From assembly GCA_001029735.1 (NCBI GenBank), contig CP011213.1, positions 76,087 to 140,086 on the forward strand: a DNA stretch of 64,000 bases. The letters are read 5' to 3'. The translations under genes were made by a program, and so were the position numbers. The DNA is from Berkelbacteria bacterium GW2011_GWE1_39_12 (lineage in GTDB: Bacteria; Patescibacteriota; UBA1384; UBA12157). Below, piece after piece: positions 3,543 through 62,330 of the stretch (position 1 is the stretch's first letter; each line of letters opens with the position of its first letter). The notes under the pieces were generated by a model. The model was not told where the DNA came from, ran no database searches, and saw nothing but the letters and a program-made list of their open reading frames with translations.

Positions 3543-4229
3543 TTATCGGTCTCCCCTGTTAAAAAGTTTAAACAATAGAAACCCATTAACTATTAAGGTT
3601 AACCAGGTAAAGGTATAAGCTGCAATCTCAAAGTAATATTCTCTATCCAGCCCCATTGTTGCTAAGATAACAACTAATGAAAGTACGGTTAGAACAAAAC
3701 TTCCAATGAATATTCCCTTAACCCATTTTTCTAATTTCGTCCGGGCTGTCATAGCCAATCCACCAAAAAGAAAAGAGATAGTCATGAGCAAAAAGCCTAA
3801 TTCTTCCAATGCGATAAATAGTCCGTGGGGGTTAAACTGTGTCAACAAAGAAACACCATCTGCCTCACCCTTTAAAACACTTGGCTGGATAACCGCTAGT
3901 TGAGTAAAATAAGTTACGAAAAAAATCGCCGCTGACATGGATGCAAAGATAACAGTAATTTGCCCGTATAATTTCTTTTTTTCTTCGGTCCGATTTCCCA
4001 AAATGATCATCAAAATCAAATAAGCAAAAATGACAACCATTGCAGGGATCAGCCAATAATAATCTCTTGGAAATCTTGAAGCAATGTCAAGATAAGGATA
4101 TTGAAAACAACTTGCAGCCCTACAAAAAGGCCCGGATAACGGAGGTGTGTAATAAGCGATAATAAAAGTCAATATTGTCGCTATTGAGGTAAATAATGCA
4201 AATCCTGATCTAAAATTAAGTTTTTTCAT
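3543..4229 (-). CDS. Hypothetical membrane protein (228 aa).
   Basis: 6 hydrophobic helices. No motif recognised. Confidence 0.5.
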   Translation of the reverse strand: MKKLNFRSGFALFTSIATILTFIIAYYTPPLSGPFCRAASCFQYPYLDIASRFPRDYYWLIPAMVVIFAYLILMIILGNRTEEKKKLYGQITVIFASMSAAIFFVTYFTQLAVIQPSVLKGEADGVSLLTQFNPHGLFIALEELGFLLMTISFLFGGLAMTARTKLEKWVKGIFIGSFVLTVLSLVVILATMGLDREYYFEIAAYTFTWLTLIVNGFLLFKLFNRGDR

Positions 4230-4395
4230 TTTTATTTCTCTCCATTACTTTTTAGCCTTAAAGCAAAATATATTAACATAATCGAAAATAGTCCCACTGA
4301 AAGCTCAAGAAGGGTGTAGATAATTGCCGCTACCTCAGGCTGCACTAAATGTAACTGGTCAGCAATAATTTGAGCAGGTATTTTTCCTCATGTTA

Positions 4396-34604: not shown

Positions 34605-34626
34605 AATTTTGTAAAATTTCCGCGGT

Positions 34627-34710
34627 AAGCAAAAGCTTACCTATATTTTTATTTTTGTTCCTGTAAACTCTTACAGATTAGCAAGCTAACCTATTATTTT
34701 TATTTTTGCA
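34627..34710. repeat. Imperfect 25-bp direct repeat (AAGCT(t/a)ACCTAT(-/t)ATTTTTATTTTTG) x2 in the pgeF-mraY intergenic region.
   Basis: Copies at about 34631-34655 and 34683-34710. Confidence 0.5.
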
Positions 34711-45270: not shown

Positions 45271-45390
45271 GAAAATTCCGCGGCAAGCTTCAAGCTTGAC
45301 TATATTTTACAGAAATTCCTTGTCGAGCTTCAACTTGACTATATTTCGTCGGAAAATTCCGTGTCGAGCTTTGGCTTGACTATATTTTTA
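45271..45390. repeat. Three tandem copies of a ~40-bp unit (GAAAATTCCGCGGCAAGCTTCAAGCTTGACTATATTTT) between rsmH and ftsL, carrying promoter-like hexamers.
   Basis: Units at 45271-45309, 45310-45349 and 45350-45390, about 80% identical. Unit 3 overlaps the rsmH stop codon. Confidence 0.7.
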
Positions 45391-46306
45391 TGGCCGCTCG
45401 AACTTTTGCTGAGCGAGCCGACGGATTGATCTGAATTTCTTCTTCAGTAGCGATAATTGGCTTAGGGGTTAAAACCTCTAAATCCGGTCGTTCGCGTAAG
45501 AAATTTTTTACAATCCTATCTTCCAATGAATGAAAGGTAATAACTACCAATCTTCCACCAGGAGATAATATTGAAACCGCTTGCGGCAAAACGCTTTTTA
45601 AATTTTCCAATTCTTTATTGACGGCCATCCGCAACGCACGGAAAGTGCCAGTAGCAAAATGAGTTTTTTGCTTAAATCGATAAGATGGCGGCGTTGATTG
45701 GCGAATAATTTCGACTAACTGATCTGTTGTTTCAATTGATTCTTTGTTTCGAACGTCTACAATTTTTCTGGCAATTTGCTTTGCGAATCTTTCTTCGCCA
45801 TCGAATAATATTTGAACTATTTCTCTTTCAGGAAATTTGTTTAAAATATCAGAGGCTGTAGTTTGAATTTTAGCATCGAGTCTCATATCTAAAGGTGCAC
45901 TACCTCTGAAACTTAAACCCAGTTCTTCAGATTTCAACTGATCGGTGTTCGGCCCAAGATCAATCAGTATACCCGAGACTTCATTCTTTTCCGGCCATTT
46001 TCTAATAATTAAGCCAATTTCGTTAAAGTTATCTTGGACTATTTCAAATCGATTGCCAAAAGAAGCCAAATTTTCATTTGCTTCGGCAATTGCCCGAAAG
46101 TCCTGTTCCACAGCTAGTAATTTGCCGTTAGGCGCTGTTTTTTTAAGGATCTCGCTCGCGTGTCCACCGTGACCTAATGTTAAATCGATAAAGTGTTCAT
46201 TTGATTGAGGGGCAAGGGTTTTAATAACTTCTTCTTTTAAGACTGGAATGTGTTTCATATTTGTCAGAAATTCCGCGAAAAGTACTCTTTTGTTGCGTAC
46301 TTTCAT
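45380..46306 (-). CDS. rsmH: 16S rRNA (cytosine1402-N4)-methyltransferase.
   Basis: MKHIPVLKEEV start (the likely true start is at 46258; the ORF track extends it to 46306). GHGGHA SAM motif. Confidence 0.85.
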   Translation of the reverse strand: MKVRNKRVLFAEFLTNMKHIPVLKEEVIKTLAPQSNEHFIDLTLGHGGHASEILKKTAPNGKLLAVEQDFRAIAEANENLASFGNRFEIVQDNFNEIGLIIRKWPEKNEVSGILIDLGPNTDQLKSEELGLSFRGSAPLDMRLDAKIQTTASDILNKFPEREIVQILFDGEERFAKQIARKIVDVRNKESIETTDQLVEIIRQSTPPSYRFKQKTHFATGTFRALRMAVNKELENLKSVLPQAVSILSPGGRLVVITFHSLEDRIVKNFLRERPDLEVLTPKPIIATEEEIQINPSARSAKVRAAIKI

Positions 46307-46451
46307 TAGTTATTTGGGACTAGCAGCCAGTGCCCCTCCTTAGATAAATCCCAATTTTGTTTTGCCCCGCCCGGCACATATTGTGACGAGTAGGACGAAT
46401 ATATGATGCAGCCGTAATTTTTGTTTTTACTGGCTGCTAGTCAAACAAGTT

Positions 46452-46898
46452 TCAAATGCCTAGCTCAGACATATGTTTGGCAATCTGATCGGTCGACTTT
46501 TCTGTTTTGGCTTTGTATTCTCTCCAGGTCGATTGATCCCAAATTTCCAAACGGTTAAAAAGTCCTGCAACTACGGCATATTTTTTCAAACCGGCATAAG
46601 CCTTTAAATAACCAGGAAGTAAGATTCTGCCTTGACTATCAAATTCTACTTCCATGGCCCCGGCCAGCATCAGACGAGAAAACGCTCGCGAGTTGGCATC
46701 GGATAAAGGTAAATTAGAAAGTTTCTCGGCGAGTGTCGTCCATTCTTTTTTTGGAAAGAGCCAGAGACAATTATCAATACCGCGAGTTACGACAGCGCCA
46801 CTACCAATATCACGCCGCATTTTAGATGGGACGGCCATTCTCCCCTTTTCATCAATTGCGTGTTCGTACTCTCCAATAAACATTGTTAATTTCCCCAC
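46452..46898 (-). CDS. mraZ: Transcriptional regulator MraZ.
   Basis: Duplicated SpoVT/AbrB-like halves, DEKGRMAVP and D.QGRILLP. Confidence 0.85.
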   Translation of the reverse strand: MGKLTMFIGEYEHAIDEKGRMAVPSKMRRDIGSGAVVTRGIDNCLWLFPKKEWTTLAEKLSNLPLSDANSRAFSRLMLAGAMEVEFDSQGRILLPGYLKAYAGLKKYAVVAGLFNRLEIWDQSTWREYKAKTEKSTDQIAKHMSELGI

Positions 46899-47003
46899 AT
46901 TTATCCACCTATCAACACTTCTCTTTCATCTTATGCCACCTGTATTTTCCTGTCAAGTACCATTTCCCCACCAAAATAACAGGTTAGAATGTAAACAACT
47001 TCA

Positions 47004-47020
47004 AAAGGGTGTGGATAAGT
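47004..47020. repeat. Copy C (partial) of the GGGTGTGGATAAGT element in the mraZ promoter region. It contains a perfect DnaA-box sequence.
   Basis: AAAAGGGTGTGGATAAGTC. TGTGGATAA is the reverse complement of TTATCCACA. Confidence 0.6.
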
Positions 47021-47174
47021 CAATAATAATCTGATATTATCTAGCTATTGGACTACATACTCCTGCCCTACCCTTGGGATGCAACAAAAGGAGTCCAATT
47101 AATTAAAAATCAAGGGCCCCAAACTATCCATGTAGTCGAACTGGATAGCAACATCAACTAATTTTGGAGTCAAA

Positions 47175-47381
47175 ATGGACAAAGAAGAAAAACAAAAATT
47201 CTCTCAAGCTATTGAAGAGAATTTATTGGAAAGCGCAAGAAACGACAAGTATCCATTGTGGCGAAGATCGCATTGGGATGAATGGGGCTCACCAGTCGGA
47301 CTAACTATTGCCTGGGCGCTATTCATTATTCCGATCGGAATCACTCTTTGGCTACTTCATCTGGCCAACATCATCCACTAA
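47175..47381 (+). CDS. Small membrane protein (68 aa).
   Basis: ORF with an AT-rich leader. C-terminal TM helix. Own terminator at 47397-47420. Confidence 0.45.
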   Translation: MDKEEKQKFSQAIEENLLESARNDKYPLWRRSHWDEWGSPVGLTIAWALFIIPIGITLWLLHLANIIH

Positions 47382-47396
47382 GATGATTTAAAAAAA

Positions 47397-47420
47397 ACGG
47401 CTCACTCGAGTCGTTTTTTT
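47397..47420 (+). terminator. Rho-independent terminator.
   Basis: ACGGCTC-actc-GAGTCGT + T7. Confidence 0.55.
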
Positions 47421-47427
47421 AAATAAA

Positions 47428-47457
47428 AACACCCCCGGAGGGGTGTGGATAAGTTAT
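47428..47457. repeat. Copy A of the 30-bp element TAAAAACACCCCCGGAGGGGTGTGGATAAGTT. The GC hairpin acts as a terminator for the minus-strand gene, and is followed by a DnaA-box sequence.
   Basis: CACCCC-cgga-GGGGTG stem. In minus orientation the hairpin is followed by TTTTTATTT. Confidence 0.65.
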
Positions 47458-47481
47458 GTTTGAACAAACACTTCGACTGGA

Positions 47482-48135
47482 TTATTCGCCCAGCGAGAGG
47501 TTAACTGACGGCAGATTGGACAAGCCACCAGATTTCGAAACGGCGGCGGCAATGGTAGCGAAAGAACTCAGCGGACTCGTTGCCGGCTGAATCTTGGCTA
47601 GAATAATGGCGAATGCCTGCTCAGGACTGAACTCGGCTTTGATCAGAGCATCGTACTCTGCCTTTTGCATTTCAGCCCGATACTCCATGATTTCGATTGA
47701 AACCGGCTTGAGTTCATTTGCGACCTTCAGACCGATGTCTGCCGGGAGCTTCATCATGGCGGTGATGTCAGGAAGATACGCTTCGATGATCGGTATGAAC
47801 GCCGGCAGCACCTTTTTCACAATTCCAACATAGTCCGTCAGAGCATCGATGTCCCCAGCCATACTCATGACAAGCATTACGATGCCCATTTGCTTTTCCA
47901 AGGTCTCTTTCCTGGCATTCAGTTCTTCGAGGTTTGTCTCCGCGGCTTCTCTCTCATCGTCCGTGAGCTGGACTACTTCAGCGCCTTCTTCTGCCGGCTC
48001 CGGATTCAGTCTGTCGGCGATCTCATCGATCTCCTTGTAGATGCCGTCGTACTCAGTTTGCATTGCTTCGATTACAGTCGCCAAAGCTTCCAATATCGGA
48101 TTCTTCGCGCCTTCGCCTTTGCTTACCTCTGTCAC
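47482..48135 (-). CDS. Hypothetical protein (217 aa), GC-rich, acidic. No recognised domain.
   Basis: 654-nt ORF at roughly 50% GC, bracketed by the two 30-bp hairpin elements. Confidence 0.55.
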   Translation of the reverse strand: MTEVSKGEGAKNPILEALATVIEAMQTEYDGIYKEIDEIADRLNPEPAEEGAEVVQLTDDEREAAETNLEELNARKETLEKQMGIVMLVMSMAGDIDALTDYVGIVKKVLPAFIPIIEAYLPDITAMMKLPADIGLKVANELKPVSIEIMEYRAEMQKAEYDALIKAEFSPEQAFAIILAKIQPATSPLSSFATIAAAVSKSGGLSNLPSVNLSLGE

Positions 48136-48261
48136 TGTATAGATCCCCTTTCGAATTGAAGTAACTACTCTGGCATAATAACAAATTATGACTCGGCTGT
48201 CAAATGATAACCACCGGCGAATGCCGGTGGTATCTATCCTGCCCGCTGATCGCGGGCGAGG

Positions 48262-48744
48262 TTACAACAGGACTGGTTGAGCTGATTGCTGTTTGTCTTG
48301 GTTTTGAATGTATTTTCTGATTGCTATTTCACTGATGCCGATAGTGGAAACAAAGTATCCACGACTCCAAAAGGTTCCTAAGGGAATCTTTTTGTTTTTC
48401 TTTTTGATCCAAGCGGATGATTTACCTTTCAGAATGCTCATGGCGTAGCTAACAGAGTATTTAGGAGGAATAGAAATATAGATATGAATATGGTCATCGG
48501 CAATATGGATTTCGTAAATCACAAGTCCTTTCCATTTGGCGATCATCTTGAAGATACGTTCAAATTCTTGTTTAATATAGGTAGAACACATGACTCTACC
48601 GCGATACTTTGGTGACCAGACCAAGTGGTATCGACAACAGTATAACGCATGATTTAGTTGGTACAATCGAGAATTAGACAATAAAATCACCTCCTTCCTT
48701 CGTCGGGGTGATTTTATTGTAACGCGATGCTTTAAAACGCACAC
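48262..48744 (-). CDS. tnpA: IS200/IS605-family transposase TnpA (HUH, Y1).
   Basis: YHLVWSPKYR, HUH motif DDHIHIYISIPPKYSVS, catalytic Tyr region WSRGYFVSTIG. Confidence 0.8.
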   Translation of the reverse strand: MCVLKHRVTIKSPRRRKEVILLSNSRLYQLNHALYCCRYHLVWSPKYRGRVMCSTYIKQEFERIFKMIAKWKGLVIYEIHIADDHIHIYISIPPKYSVSYAMSILKGKSSAWIKKKNKKIPLGTFWSRGYFVSTIGISEIAIRKYIQNQDKQQSAQPVLL

Positions 48745-48778
48745 GCCAGCTAAAGCTGGCGGATTTTCCTTTAACTAA

Positions 48779-48808
48779 AAACACCCCCGAGGGGGTGTGG
48801 ATAAATTG
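48779..48808. repeat. Copy B of the 30-bp hairpin + DnaA-box element (TAAAAACACCCCCGAGGGGGTGTGGATAAATT).
   Basis: Near-identical to copy A. It acts as the terminator of the formyltransferase gene and lies just upstream of tnpA. Confidence 0.65.
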
Positions 48809-48819
48809 AGCATTTGTTG

Positions 48820-49461
48820 TTAACCGTCCAAGCACCAAGGAGGCACAGAAAGACTTCTTTTGTCCTTACCATCCCAGCTAATGCCACCAGTAACCACCAT
48901 CTGTGTGATGATCGGTTGATAGGTGTGTTCAGCGACATTTACCCTTTGTGCCAACGACTCAGGCGTGTCATTATCTAGAATTTTGATCCTTTTTACAAAG
49001 ATAATTGGACCGTCGTCATACTTTTCCGTGACAAAATGCATAGTTACGGCTGTGTGAGTGATCTCTCCCCGACTGTACGCAGCCATAACTGCTTCATGAA
49101 CATGGTGACCGTAAAATCCTTGGCCACCAAACTGAGGCAATGGTCCAGGATGAATATTAATTGTGATTTTCGGGTCAAGACCAACAACTGGCCTTAACCA
49201 GCCAGAAAGACAAATAAGATGTGGCTGAAATTCATCTACGAATATCTGATACTCCTCGGCTTCCCACGGACCGGTGAAGAGTCTGAAAGGAACTGTAAGC
49301 CGATCTGCTTTTTGCTGCACTCCGCCATTGTAATGAGTCGAAACAACACCGACAATTTTTGCATCTAGCGTTCCCTTAAGCGTTGCTTCAACCAAATTTA
49401 CAAATCCAGACCCGCCACCCGTCTTTGTGCCATTCACAAATACCAATATCCGCTTTTCCAC
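48820..49461 (-). CDS. Formyltransferase-domain protein (PurN/Fmt N-terminal-domain-like).
   Basis: LICLSGWLRPVV...ITINIHPGPLPQFGG resembles the formyltransferase SLLP/HPS motif region. Confidence 0.55.
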   Translation of the reverse strand: MEKRILVFVNGTKTGGGSGFVNLVEATLKGTLDAKIVGVVSTHYNGGVQQKADRLTVPFRLFTGPWEAEEYQIFVDEFQPHLICLSGWLRPVVGLDPKITINIHPGPLPQFGGQGFYGHHVHEAVMAAYSRGEITHTAVTMHFVTEKYDDGPIIFVKRIKILDNDTPESLAQRVNVAEHTYQPIITQMVVTGGISWDGKDKRSLSVPPWCLDG

Positions 49462-58999: not shown

Positions 59000-59123
59000 A
59001 AACTTTATGTTGGCGCCTACCTACTTTCCCGGAACCTTTCGGATCAAGTATCATCGGTACTATGGTGCTTAACTACTCTGTTCGGAATGGGAAGAGGTGT
59101 ACCCACCACGTTAAAGCACCAAC
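59000..59123 (-). rRNA. rrf: 5S ribosomal RNA.
   Basis: The reverse complement reads TGTTGGTGCTTTAACGTGGTGGGTACACCTCTTCCCATTCCGAACAGAGTAGTTAAGCACCATAGTACCGATGATACTTGATCCGAAAGGTTCCGGGAAAGTAGGTAGGCGCCAACA, with helix I pairing and the CCGAAC loop C motif. Confidence 0.85.
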
Positions 59124-59184
59124 ATAAAATTTTTAAAAGCCAACTCTACTCTGCTCTCCGGCATAGCCGGAGTAAGCAAGCTTC

Positions 59185-59236
59185 CCGGAATGGGAAGAGG
59201 TGTACCCACCACGTTAAGACACCAACACTCAAGCCA
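59185..59236 (-). pseudogene. Truncated 5S rRNA 5'-half pseudo-copy in the 23S-5S spacer.
   Basis: GTGTTGGTGTCTTAACGTGGTGGGTACACCTCTTCCCATTCCGGGAAG is about 94% identical to the first 48 nt of the 5S, then diverges. Confidence 0.6.
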
Positions 59237-59355
59237 CAATGGCTTCTTAAAATTCTTCTAACGTATGTTTTTTGATTTGATTTTTAACTGTTTAGTGACC
59301 TTGGTAGTTGTCCAACCGTCCTCTTAGACGCGTAACAAGTTACGCATAAAAGAGG

Positions 59356-62330
<2,975 letters not shown>

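What the first reader, a model, noticed from the sequence alone, without database searches (positions are those of the whole stretch)
46990..48812. 30-bp GC-hairpin + perfect DnaA-box element present three times, in the mraZ promoter and flanking an IS200-like unit
TAAAAACACCCCCGGAGGGGTGTGGATAAGTT occurs at 47428 and, as a near-identical copy, at 48779. In both places the hairpin doubles as a terminator for a minus-strand gene. A hairpin-less version, AAAAGGGTGTGGATAAGTC, sits 100 bp upstream of mraZ. A one-mismatch variant, GGGTGTAGATAA, is at 4312.

Each carries TGTGGATAA, the exact complement of the DnaA-box consensus TTATCCACA.

Copy B abuts the IS200-family tnpA. IS200/IS605 and RAYT transposases are known to recognise REP-like hairpins.

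So this may be a REP-like family used as an IS target, as terminators, or both. A DnaA box is embedded that could couple dcw-cluster transcription (mraZ promoter) to DnaA.
Basis: partly seen in the sequence, partly recalled or inferred. Interest (0 to 1): 0.55.

Follow-up and report, generated by a model that had tools for sequence, protein, structure and literature searches.

The report
Conserved DnaA-box site upstream of mraZ
A perfect DnaA-box word fused to a transcription terminator sits upstream of the cell-division (mraZ) promoter in this groundwater Berkelbacterium and in most of its relatives, which suggests that DNA replication status feeds into cell-division gene control; the two extra copies are local duplicates and not a mobile repeat family.

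Summary
TGTGGATAA occurs three times, all within 1.8 kb. Two copies carry an ACACCCC/GGGGTGT hairpin that terminates minus-strand genes.

The REP-like / IS-target reading is not supported:
- The unit occurs nowhere else in the 64 kb.
- The tnpA is a true IS200 transposase, not a RAYT.
- The IS left end starts after copy B's hairpin.
- A second insertion of the same IS follows an unrelated terminator that has no box.

The DnaA / mraZ reading is strengthened. The organism is a Candidatus Berkelbacteria bacterium (CPR). In 8 of 9 related mraZ loci (7 of 8 independent lineages), a perfect TTATCCACA lies upstream of the mraZ promoter, always on the coding strand. Exactly nine columns are invariant, while the flanks are 33-39% identical. 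In five of the seven lineages the upstream gene's terminator stem starts inside the box.

Downstream of the promoter is an orthodox MraZ operator of phased GTG(G/T) boxes, laid out as in E. coli. Its box 2 and a +22 box are often TGTGGATAA too.

Copy C is the conserved site. Copies A and B are strain-specific duplicates of the box-plus-terminator module.

DnaA is the most likely binder (about 0.5) and MraZ is the main rival (about 0.25). B. subtilis offers a precedent: DnaA represses yllB (mraZ)-ftsL. Interest is moderate.

The parts
47010..47018 (-). Copy C box. TTATCCACA on the mraZ-coding strand, 54-62 nt upstream of the -35 element. This is the orthologue of the site conserved in relatives. 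The wider unit C is 46984-47021 and its hairpin has decayed.
   Evidence: The 9 columns are 100% identical in 7 lineages and the flanks are 33-39% identical. Fold energy is -0.4 kcal/mol.
47418..47455 (-). Module A. Box at 47444-47452, terminator stem-loop at 47429-47446, U-run at 47424-47428. It starts 30 nt after the ORF217 stop codon.
   Evidence: -13.8 kcal/mol.
48770..48807 (-). Module B. Box at 48796-48804, terminator stem-loop at 48781-48798, T-run at 48777-48781. It starts 16 nt after the stop codon of the formyltransferase-like gene. The IS200 left end follows immediately.
   Evidence: (-14.4 kcal/mol).
46928..46956 (-). mraZ (dcw operon) promoter candidate, TTGACA-17-TAAGAT. A GTGG box (GTGGCATAAGAT, 46928-46939) overlaps the -10 element.
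   Evidence: The same layout is seen in all relatives.
46889..46918 (-). MraZ operator. Three direct boxes, GTGT-N6-GTGG-N6-GTGG: box 1 at 46909-46918, box 2 GTGGATAAAT at 46899-46908, box 3 GTGGGGAAAT at 46889-46898. It lies directly before the mraZ ATG.
   Evidence: Operator definition from PMC12957436. The E. coli layout is the same.
46962..46971 (-). Extra GTGGGGAAAT box just upstream of the -35 element. It is found in this strain only and is out of phase with the array.
46977..46985 (-). AACCTGTTA, a short motif between the box/terminator and the -35 element. It is shared with L054, L055 and L057, and occurs as its reverse complement AACAGGTT in L059 and L062. Function unknown.
46452..46883 (-). 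mraZ, 143 aa. The DNA-contacting residues K13, R15 and R86 are present. It is followed by rsmH, an ftsL-like gene and a PBP gene.
47175..47381 (+). ORF68, a small strain-specific gene divergent from mraZ. Its candidate promoter (TGGATA-17-TATTAT with TG, 47012-47040) uses the box as its -35 element.
   Evidence: no homolog in the relatives' loci.
47390..47420 (.). Second, bidirectional terminator between ORF68 and module A (A-run, CGGCTCACTCGAGTCG, T-run).
47482..48135 (-). ORF217, a strain-specific gene of unknown function that is terminated by module A. Its promoter, TTGACA-17-TATTAT with TG, is at 48175-48203, and its -35 element abuts the IS right end.
48200..48781 (-). IS200 element. tnpA is at 48262-48690 (142 aa as called in public records). 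The left-end hairpin is at 48744-48761, an RBS-occluding hairpin at 48685-48713 and the right-end hairpin at 48210-48231. The left boundary is at or just after the T-run at 48777-48781. The right boundary is only approximate.
48820..49461 (-). Formyltransferase-like gene (PF00551), strain-specific at this position and terminated by module B.
4312..4324 (-). One-mismatch variant (TTATCTACA-CCC on the minus strand) in an intergenic region. It is possibly a decayed copy and possibly chance.

Best explanation
The core of the finding is a single 9-bp protein-binding site, TTATCCACA read on the mraZ-coding (minus) strand. It is conserved upstream of the dcw-operon (mraZ) promoter in Candidatus Berkelbacteria. 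I take it to be a DnaA box.

In most lineages the box is fused to the Rho-independent terminator of the upstream gene, with the stem starting in the box's CACA. Downstream of the promoter lies an ordinary MraZ operator of phased GTG(G/T) boxes. Its box 2 and a +22 box are TGTGGATAA in most relatives, so inverted copies of the same word bracket the promoter.

Proposed mechanism (inferred):
- DnaA occupancy, which reports replication status, acts on the mraZ promoter alongside MraZ autorepression, as reported for the B. subtilis yllB (mraZ)-ftsL operon.
- DnaA may also act as a roadblock that reinforces the adjacent terminator and insulates the dcw operon from upstream read-through, as described for the E. 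coli asnC terminator and datA.

In this strain the roughly 40-bp box-plus-terminator module exists three times. C sits at the ancestral position and has lost its hairpin, because its upstream neighbour is now a divergent gene. A and B are recent copies that terminate two strain-specific genes in the variable glyS-mraZ interval. The IS200 later inserted behind B's T-run.

Shown: the sequence architecture, its conservation, the terminator character of A and B, and the IS boundary. Inferred: that DnaA binds, the sign and mechanism of regulation, and how A and B were copied.
For: **The box is conserved as a 9-mer.**
- A perfect TTATCCACA, always in the same orientation, lies 146-256 nt upstream of the mraZ ATG in L051, L054, L055, L057, L059, L060 and L062. 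In the window it lies 135 nt upstream.
- The chance of this is about 0.002 per lineage.
- Exactly 9 columns are invariant in 7 independent lineages, and the flanks have 33% and 39% mean pairwise identity.
- Across 133 kb of Berkelbacteria DNA there are 21 perfect 9-mers against about 1.6 expected, and 17 of them lie within 260 nt upstream of mraZ.

**It looks like a high-affinity DnaA box.**
- The flanks G-TTATCCACA-G match E. coli oriC R1 and R4.
- An extra site of the same class in L062 abuts a -35 element and has no GTG array.
- Copy C kept the box perfectly while its hairpin decayed, so the box is selected independently of the terminator.

**The hairpin overlaps the box in several lineages.**
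- Three different stems overlap it: ACACCCC/GGGGTGT, ACAGCCC/GGGCTGT (a compensatory change) and ATCCACAGG/CCTGTGGAT.

**The array is an MraZ operator.**
- GTG(G/T) boxes sit at offsets -62, -41, -20, -10, 0 and +22 from box 3.
- This matches the published definition (PMC12957436) and the E. coli layout.

**Precedents.**
- DnaA binds and represses yllB (ftsL) in B. subtilis (PMC2533591; bioRxiv 10.1101/2022.02.09.479790).
- DnaA at the asnC terminator and at datA box 2 has been linked to termination, and the glyVXY terminator overlaps datA box 1 (PMC10950094).
Against: - No binding data exist.
- I could not reach a Berkelbacteria dnaA or oriC locus, so I could not confirm that this lineage's DnaA uses TTATCCACA.
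- The word contains the MraZ core GTGG and recurs inside the MraZ operator, so MraZ could be the binder.
- The most distant relative, L063, lacks the upstream box, so it is dispensable.
- The box-to-promoter distance varies widely, from 42 to 152 nt to the -35 element. This argues against a fixed activator geometry and leaves the mode of action open.
- Nothing shows that the boxes in A and B are functional rather than passengers of a duplicated terminator.
- Only about 7% of the roughly 915-kb genome was examined.
Confidence: 0.5

Rival explanations
1. The upstream TTATCCACA is a distal, inverted MraZ box. The MraZ ring bound to the phased operator also captures this site and loops the promoter. 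DnaA plays no part, and the match to the DnaA consensus is a by-product of GTGG followed by an A-rich spacer.
For: - The word contains the MraZ core GTGG, and box 2 of the operator is the same word (GTGGATAAAT / TGTGGATAAA) in 7 of 9 loci.
- The MraZ octamer can bind a single box and tolerates long spacers (PMC12957436).
- In E. coli, MraZ binds a site overlapping a DnaA box at mioC (PMC4446571).
- The window's MraZ keeps K13, R15 and R86.
Against: - The base-specific contacts of MraZ cover only GTG(G/T), yet all nine positions, including TTAT, are invariant while the flanks are random.
- Operator boxes 1 and 3 show that MraZ does not need ATAA.
- The orientation is inverted, and the distance to the array (90-199 bp) shows no helical phasing.
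- A site of the same class in L062 has no array.
- E. coli has the same operator without any such upstream box.
Confidence: 0.25
2. One reading: the hairpin plus box is a REP-like dispersed repeat, mobilised or recognised by a Y1 (IS200/RAYT) transposase and used as an insertion target.
For: - A and B are 34/38 identical over a discrete unit of about 40 bp with unrelated flanks, so something copied a short unit.
- The IS200 abuts B.
- Relatives carry RAYT-like genes flanked by REP-type hairpin pairs directly upstream of mraZ.
Against: - There are only three adjacent copies in 64 kb, with no other copy at up to 9/38 mismatches and no other hairpin of this type.
- More than about 100 genomic copies would predict about 7 more in the window. 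A family of up to about 30 copies cannot be excluded.
- The pattern is at chance level in species-representative genomes.
- The tnpA is IS200, not a RAYT.
- The IS boundary excludes the hairpin, and the second insertion is next to an unrelated terminator without a box.
- The relatives' REP hairpins have different, species-specific sequences.
Confidence: 0.07
3. No regulatory role: A and B are ordinary terminators duplicated by local rearrangement, and the 9-mer is a chance word carried along.
For: - Three hits in the window are only marginally above chance on their own (4 of 100 shuffles).
- A and B are recent copies, so they are not independent events.
Against: - This cannot explain a perfect 9-mer, in the same orientation and the same position, in 7 independent lineages with randomised flanks.
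- It also cannot explain why the box survived in copy C after the hairpin decayed.
Confidence: 0.05

Closest known systems
DnaA-regulated yllB (mraZ)-ylxA-ftsL-pbpB operon of Bacillus subtilis (Goranov et al. 2005, as cited in PMC2533591 and bioRxiv 10.1101/2022.02.09.479790)
   Same: DnaA-box sequences lie in the control region of the operon headed by mraZ. The proposed role is to couple replication status to division genes. An MraZ operator sits at the same promoter.
   Different: Here the evidence is phylogenetic only. The site is a single perfect box at a variable distance upstream, usually fused to a terminator. The promoter is additionally bracketed by the same word inside the MraZ array. 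The organism is a CPR bacterium with a genome of about 0.9 Mb.
DnaA box / terminator combinations in E. coli: the asnC terminator (Schaefer & Messer 1988, 1989) and the glyVXY terminator overlapping datA DnaA box 1 (PMC10950094)
   Same: A DnaA box overlaps or abuts a Rho-independent terminator, and bound DnaA is proposed to hinder transcribing RNA polymerase. The asnC effect depends on orientation, and the sites here all share one orientation.
   Different: I could not read which orientation is active in the E. coli work. Here the box is 5' of the hairpin and shares bases with the stem. The module stands in front of a division promoter and has been duplicated.
MraZ operator (MraZ-binding repeats): E. 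coli GTGGG x3, B. subtilis GTGG[A/T]G x3, M. genitalium AAAGTG[T/G] x4
   Same: The array at 46889-46918 has three GTG(G/T) boxes with 6-nt spacers between the -10 element and the mraZ ATG. This is the same layout as E. coli K-12. The MraZ contact residues are conserved.
   Different: It is a single inverted box with nine invariant positions. The Berkelbacteria array extends to six phased boxes covering the -35 and -10 elements, and its box 2 and +22 box equal the DnaA consensus.
REP / REPIN elements with RAYT transposases
   Same: Short GC-rich hairpins lie in intergenic regions. Relatives (L055/56, L060/61, L057) have RAYT-like genes flanked by paired hairpins at or near this very locus.
   Different: There is no RAYT in the window, no dispersed copies in the window, and no paired inverted arrangement. 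The conserved part is the 9-mer and not the hairpin.
IS200/IS605 family insertion sequences
   Same: The 48200-48781 element has a 142-aa Y1 transposase, similar subterminal hairpins at both ends (CCAGCTTTAGCTGG and CCGGCATTCGCCGG) and an RBS-occluding hairpin. It inserted without an obvious target duplication.
   Different: The box-hairpin lies outside the IS. In the two known insertions the IS sits directly 3' of a terminator T-run, whichever terminator that is.

Membership tests
DnaA box (DnaA-binding cis element) | 9-mer matching the consensus TTATCCACA | tested here: met
   There are three perfect matches in the window. There are perfect matches upstream of mraZ in 8 of 9 Berkelbacteria loci. 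The flanks G..G match E. coli oriC R1 and R4.
DnaA box (DnaA-binding cis element) | Selective constraint confined to the 9-mer | tested here: met
   Nine columns are 100% identical in 7 lineages. The flanks are 33% and 39% identical.
DnaA box (DnaA-binding cis element) | The same word is used in clusters at the lineage's own oriC | not tested
   There is no dnaA gene or origin in the window, and no GC-skew switch. Look-ups were exhausted before a Berkelbacteria origin could be reached.
DnaA box (DnaA-binding cis element) | Binding by DnaA protein (EMSA, footprint or ChIP) | not testable with these tools
   This needs an experiment.
MraZ operator (MraZ-binding repeats) | [quoted passage not shown] | tested here: met
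   This is met for the array at 46889-46918, GTGT-N6-GTGG-N6-GTGG. Phased boxes sit at -62, -41, -20, -10, 0 and +22 in the relatives. The E. coli layout is the same.
   Each element is a single box in inverted orientation, 90-199 bp from the array, with no constant helical phase. A and B are 0.57 and 1.9 kb away.
MraZ operator (MraZ-binding repeats) | The cognate MraZ has DNA-contact residues K13, R15 and R86 | tested here: met
   K13, R15 and R86 are present in the window's MraZ. Pfam MraZ E-value is 1e-41.
REP / REPIN-RAYT system | Many dispersed copies of the hairpin across the genome | tested here: not met
   There are only three adjacent copies in 64 kb. The rest of the roughly 915-kb genome was not examined, so a small family cannot be excluded.
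REP / REPIN-RAYT system | A cognate RAYT (REP-associated tyrosine transposase) gene | tested here: not met
   The window's tnpA scores 120 bits on the IS200 model NF033573 (cutoff 55) and 23 bits on the RAYT model NF047646 (cutoff 80). The relatives' 220-aa proteins score 53-60 bits on the RAYT model, which is below its cutoff.
IS200/IS605 element end | The sequence lies inside the element boundaries and recurs with every copy | tested here: not met
   A second IS copy (L064) is 99.9% identical from window position 48781 inward. It shares nothing outward and has a different terminator there.
Rho-independent (intrinsic) terminator | A GC-rich stem-loop followed by a U-run, downstream of a gene on the same strand | tested here: met
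   A and B each have a 7-bp stem with 5 G-C pairs, a 4-nt loop and a T-run, and fold at -13.8 and -14.4 kcal/mol. This is not met for C (-0.4 kcal/mol).

The most novel reading that the evidence does not exclude
The box-plus-hairpin is a DnaA-gated terminator or insulator. Because the box shares bases with the 5' arm of the stem, DnaA occupancy of the DNA, or of the nascent UUAUCCACA as has been claimed for 'rDnaA boxes', would decide whether upstream transcription stops or reads into the dcw operon. DnaA and MraZ would also compete for the TGTGGATAA boxes inside the operator. The roughly 40-bp module would be portable and was copied behind newly acquired genes. This would be a compact replication-to-division coupling device in bacteria with very few regulators.
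Probability: 0.12. Interest if true: 0.7.

Novelty: new member of a known kind. Interest (0 to 1): 0.42.

Why it matters
CPR/Patescibacteria have tiny genomes and few transcription factors, and their cell-cycle control is essentially unstudied. I found no paper in the searched library that links DnaA boxes to this group.

This finding gives a concrete, testable cis-regulatory map for their division operon:
- a perfectly conserved DnaA-type site, usually fused to a terminator, in front of the dcw promoter
- next to it, a textbook MraZ operator that reuses the same word

It also suggests that the DnaA-to-mraZ/ftsL link described in B. subtilis may be ancient and widespread. On the practical side, apparent local 'repeat families' around mraZ can be regulatory modules rather than mobile DNA.

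Tried and rejected
- **Replication origin or terminus.** Rejected: GC skew is monotonic across the window and all flanking genes are on one strand.
- **Known RNA family.** Nothing significant in 46300-49000.
- **Dispersed repeat family.**
  - Scans of species-representative genomes gave 3 unrelated hits.
  - Scans of JGI metagenomes gave 40 loci, and none was the A or B site. Only L051 was a relative, and it turned out to be the key ortholog.
  - The metagenome scan did not recover A or B themselves, so it says nothing about copy number in the source genome.
- **Empty site for the IS.** All sibling assemblies (L001, L002, L011-L013) break in or at the IS, so no empty site was found.
- **IS copies via the exact transposase.** The 160-aa and 140-aa versions found nothing new. 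The 142-aa version found L064.
- **tnpA as a RAYT.** Rejected.
- **Homologs of ORF217, ORF68 and the formyltransferase in relatives' mraZ loci.** None found.
- **Primary papers.** Goranov 2005 and Schaefer & Messer 1989 are not held. I cite them through papers that are held, and the active box orientation remains unverified.
- **The 4312 site as a fourth copy.** Inconclusive.
Full report
**Observation.** TGTGGATAA occurs three times in the 64-kb window, all on the + strand, at 47010, 47444 and 48796. Shuffles give 0.53 expected. The 26-mer with the hairpin is at 47430-47455, and a 3-mismatch copy is at 48782-48807. The repeat finder groups three 38-nt units: C at 46984-47021 (71% identical to A), A at 47418-47455, and B at 48770-48807 (89%). 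On the minus strand, A and B read AAyTTATCCACACCCC-loop-GGGGTGTTTTTA. They are called as intrinsic terminators and fold at -13.8 and -14.4 kcal/mol. C has no hairpin, at -0.4 kcal/mol.

**Context.** All the relevant genes are on the minus strand. In transcription order they are:
- a formyltransferase-like gene (48820-49461), then module B
- an IS200 (tnpA 48262-48690)
- the promoter and ORF217 (47482-48135), then module A and a second, bidirectional terminator
- ORF68 on the + strand (47175-47381)
- unit C, then the promoter TTGACA-17-TAAGAT (46956..46928)
- mraZ (46452-46883), rsmH, an ftsL-like gene and a PBP gene

GC skew is monotonic, so this is not an origin or terminus. The organism is a groundwater Candidatus Berkelbacteria bacterium.

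**Is it a repeat family?**
- In the window no other copy exists, even at 9/38 mismatches.
- Only two hairpins of the ACACCCC type are present.
- The pattern CACCCC-N4-GGGGTGTGGATAA gave 3 hits in unrelated taxa among 185,579 species genomes. I estimate about 4 would be expected by chance.
- A JGI metagenome scan gave 40 loci. None was the A or B site. Most belong to unrelated organisms.
- One of those loci, L051, turned out to be a relative (MraZ 83% and RsmH 56% identical). It carries AAAAACACCCCCGTAGGGGTGTGGATAAGT directly upstream of its own mraZ promoter.

**Comparative footprint.** I fetched mraZ loci of seven more Berkelbacteria, with MraZ 73-89% identical. On the mraZ-coding strand, 8 of 9 loci (7 of 8 independent lineages) have a perfect TTATCCACA 135-256 nt upstream of the ATG, always in that orientation.
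- Anchored on the box, the nine columns are 100% identical. The 15-nt flanks have 33% and 39% mean pairwise identity.
- The chance of such a site is about 0.002 per lineage.
- Across 133 kb of Berkelbacteria DNA there are 21 perfect 9-mers against about 1.6 expected. Seventeen of them lie within 260 nt upstream of mraZ.
- The most distant locus, L063, lacks the upstream box, and its upstream region has been replaced.

**Relation to terminators.** In five of the seven lineages with the box, a stable hairpin with a U-run starts inside the box. There are three different stem sequences:
- (C)ACACCC(C)/(G)GGGTGT(G) in L051 and L057, and in the window's modules A and B
- ACAGCCC/GGGCTGT in L054 and L055, which differs by a compensatory change
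- ATCCACAGG/CCTGTGGAT in L060

These fold at -11 to -14 kcal/mol. In L059 and L062 a strong terminator lies 17-22 nt 5' of the box instead. In the window, C lost its hairpin but kept the box. Its upstream neighbour is now a divergent gene, so there is no co-directional transcript to stop. The box is therefore selected independently of the hairpin.

Between the -10 element and the mraZ ATG the window has GTGTTGATAG GTGGATAAAT GTGGGGAAAT (46918-46889).
- In the relatives, GTG(G/T) boxes sit at offsets -62, -41, -20, -10, 0 and +22 from box 3, which is a period of about 10.4 bp. They cover the -35 element (GGTGTTGACA), the -10 element (GTGGCATAAGAT) and the leader.
- It has the same layout as E. 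coli K-12: TTGACA-17-TAAACT, then GTGGGAAATT GTGGGGCAAA GTGGGAATAA, then the ATG.
- The window's MraZ keeps K13, R15 and R86.
- Box 2 is TGTGGATAAA in 7 of 9 loci. The +22 box is TGTGGATAA(C/G) in three loci and a one- or two-mismatch variant in three more.

So inverted copies of the DnaA-consensus word bracket the promoter.

**Who binds the upstream box?**

Points favouring DnaA:
- The invariant block has exactly the length and sequence of the high-affinity DnaA box. This includes TTAT, which MraZ does not contact, since its specific contacts are to GTG(G/T).
- The flanks G-TTATCCACA-G equal those of E. coli oriC R1 and R4.
- The site is single, inverted, and at a variable and unphased distance from the array. 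That suits a monomeric high-affinity binder.
- A site of the same class in L062 abuts another promoter's -35 element with no GTG array.
- E. coli has the same operator without such a box.

Points favouring MraZ:
- The word contains GTGG and recurs within the operator.
- The MraZ octamer can hold a single box.
- E. coli MraZ binds a site overlapping the DnaA box at mioC (PMC4446571).

I put DnaA at about 0.5 and MraZ at about 0.25. Nothing here shows binding.

**Precedents.**
- DnaA bound at the asnC terminator hinders RNA polymerase (Schaefer & Messer 1988/89).
- The E. coli glyVXY terminator overlaps datA DnaA box 1, and datA box 2 contributes to termination (PMC10950094).
- I could not read the primary papers, so I do not know which box orientation is the active one.

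**The IS200 and the REP idea.**
- The tnpA is a true IS200 transposase. It scores 120 bits on NF033573 (cutoff 55) and only 23 bits on the RAYT model.
- The IS has its own end hairpins, CCAGCTTTAGCTGG and CCGGCATTCGCCGG.
- A second copy, L064, is 99.9% identical to the window from 48781 inward. Outward it has a glucosaminidase gene and a different, box-less terminator.
- So the hairpin and box of B are outside the IS, and the element sits directly 3' of a terminator T-run in both cases.
- L064's right flank is the same ORF217. That could reflect an IS-mediated rearrangement, or an assembly path through the repeat.
- The genes between glyS and mraZ differ in every relative, and none of the window's genes in that interval has a homolog at that position in the relatives. 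The interval is a hotspot for gene turnover.
- How the roughly 40-bp module was copied behind two newly acquired genes is not resolved.

**Verdict.**
- The REP / IS-target / RAYT reading is not supported.
- The DnaA-box-at-mraZ reading is substantially strengthened by conservation but remains an inference, with MraZ as a credible alternative binder.
- It is best filed as a new, CPR-lineage example of a DnaA-type site in the dcw control region, with an unusual fusion to a terminator.
- Interest is moderate.

Noticed in passing
L055 4131-4802 (-), L056 3272-3943 (-), L061 4120-4791 (-), L057 1103-1762 (-): Several relatives carry a gene of about 220 aa for a Y1 transposase-like protein. Its only NCBIfam hit is the REP-associated tyrosine transposase model (53-60 bits, below the 80-bit cutoff), and it has HUH (LMPTH[VI]HL) and RY.HLNP motifs. 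Each gene is flanked on both sides by a species-specific GC hairpin: ATACAACCCCAGGGGTTGTAT, AACACCCCAGAGGTGTCGGA or CCGCACCTGCCAGGTGCGGAA. In two lineages the gene sits directly upstream of mraZ and divergent from it, 10-30 nt from the conserved box. This looks like RAYT-plus-REP pairs in CPR genomes that recur at the mraZ hotspot.
   Followed up: partly
L014 (box at 3673 on the reverse strand), L052 14531, L027, L017, L024, L036, L037, L039: Unrelated metagenome contigs show the same order: gene end (a tRNA, pth or another gene), then TTATCCACA, then a CCCC...GGGG hairpin, then a -10-like element, then the next gene. Most have no T-run after the hairpin. My search pattern selected for box plus hairpin, so enrichment cannot be judged. 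Several contigs come from one sample series (Ga0209542, Ga0155791).
   Followed up: partly
window 48192-48209: The -35 hexamer (TTGACA) of the ORF217 promoter lies right at the presumed right end of the IS200 (..TATCATTTGA|CAGCC..). The promoter may therefore be a hybrid created by the insertion. In the only other copy seen (L064), the IS is linked to the same ORF217.
   Followed up: no
L063 4360-4760: In the most distant relative, a GC-rich non-coding stretch of about 400 nt, ending in a strong hairpin, replaces the region where the other relatives have the upstream box. It matches no Rfam family. Its fold energy is -160 kcal/mol, with a z-score of -1.9 against shuffles.
   Followed up: partly
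window 45313-45346, 45354-45387 and 34614-34652: Three copies of a roughly 35-nt unit (AAATTCC.TGTCGAGCTT...CTTGACTATATTT) contain a short inverted repeat. Two copies are in tandem between rsmH and the ftsL-like gene, and the third is 10.7 kb away inside the dcw region. They could be internal promoters or attenuators.
   Followed up: no
window 59008-62326, and 59083-59124 / 59186-59227: 23S (59356-62326) and 5S (59008-59123) rRNA genes lie on the minus strand. A 42-nt segment overlapping the 5S gene end is repeated 103 nt away at 95% identity.
   Followed up: no
window 46977-46985, and the same position in L054, L055 and L057 (reverse complement in L059 and L062): A short motif, AACCTGTTA(A), is conserved between the box/terminator and the -35 element of the mraZ promoter. 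In two lineages it appears as its reverse complement, AACAGGTT. Function unknown.
   Followed up: no
L062 862-877: A further perfect box of the same class (aaagTTATCCACA) lies one base from a TTGACA -35 element, in front of a 1284-aa surface-protein gene. No MraZ-type array accompanies it. It is a possible second member of the same regulon.
   Followed up: partly
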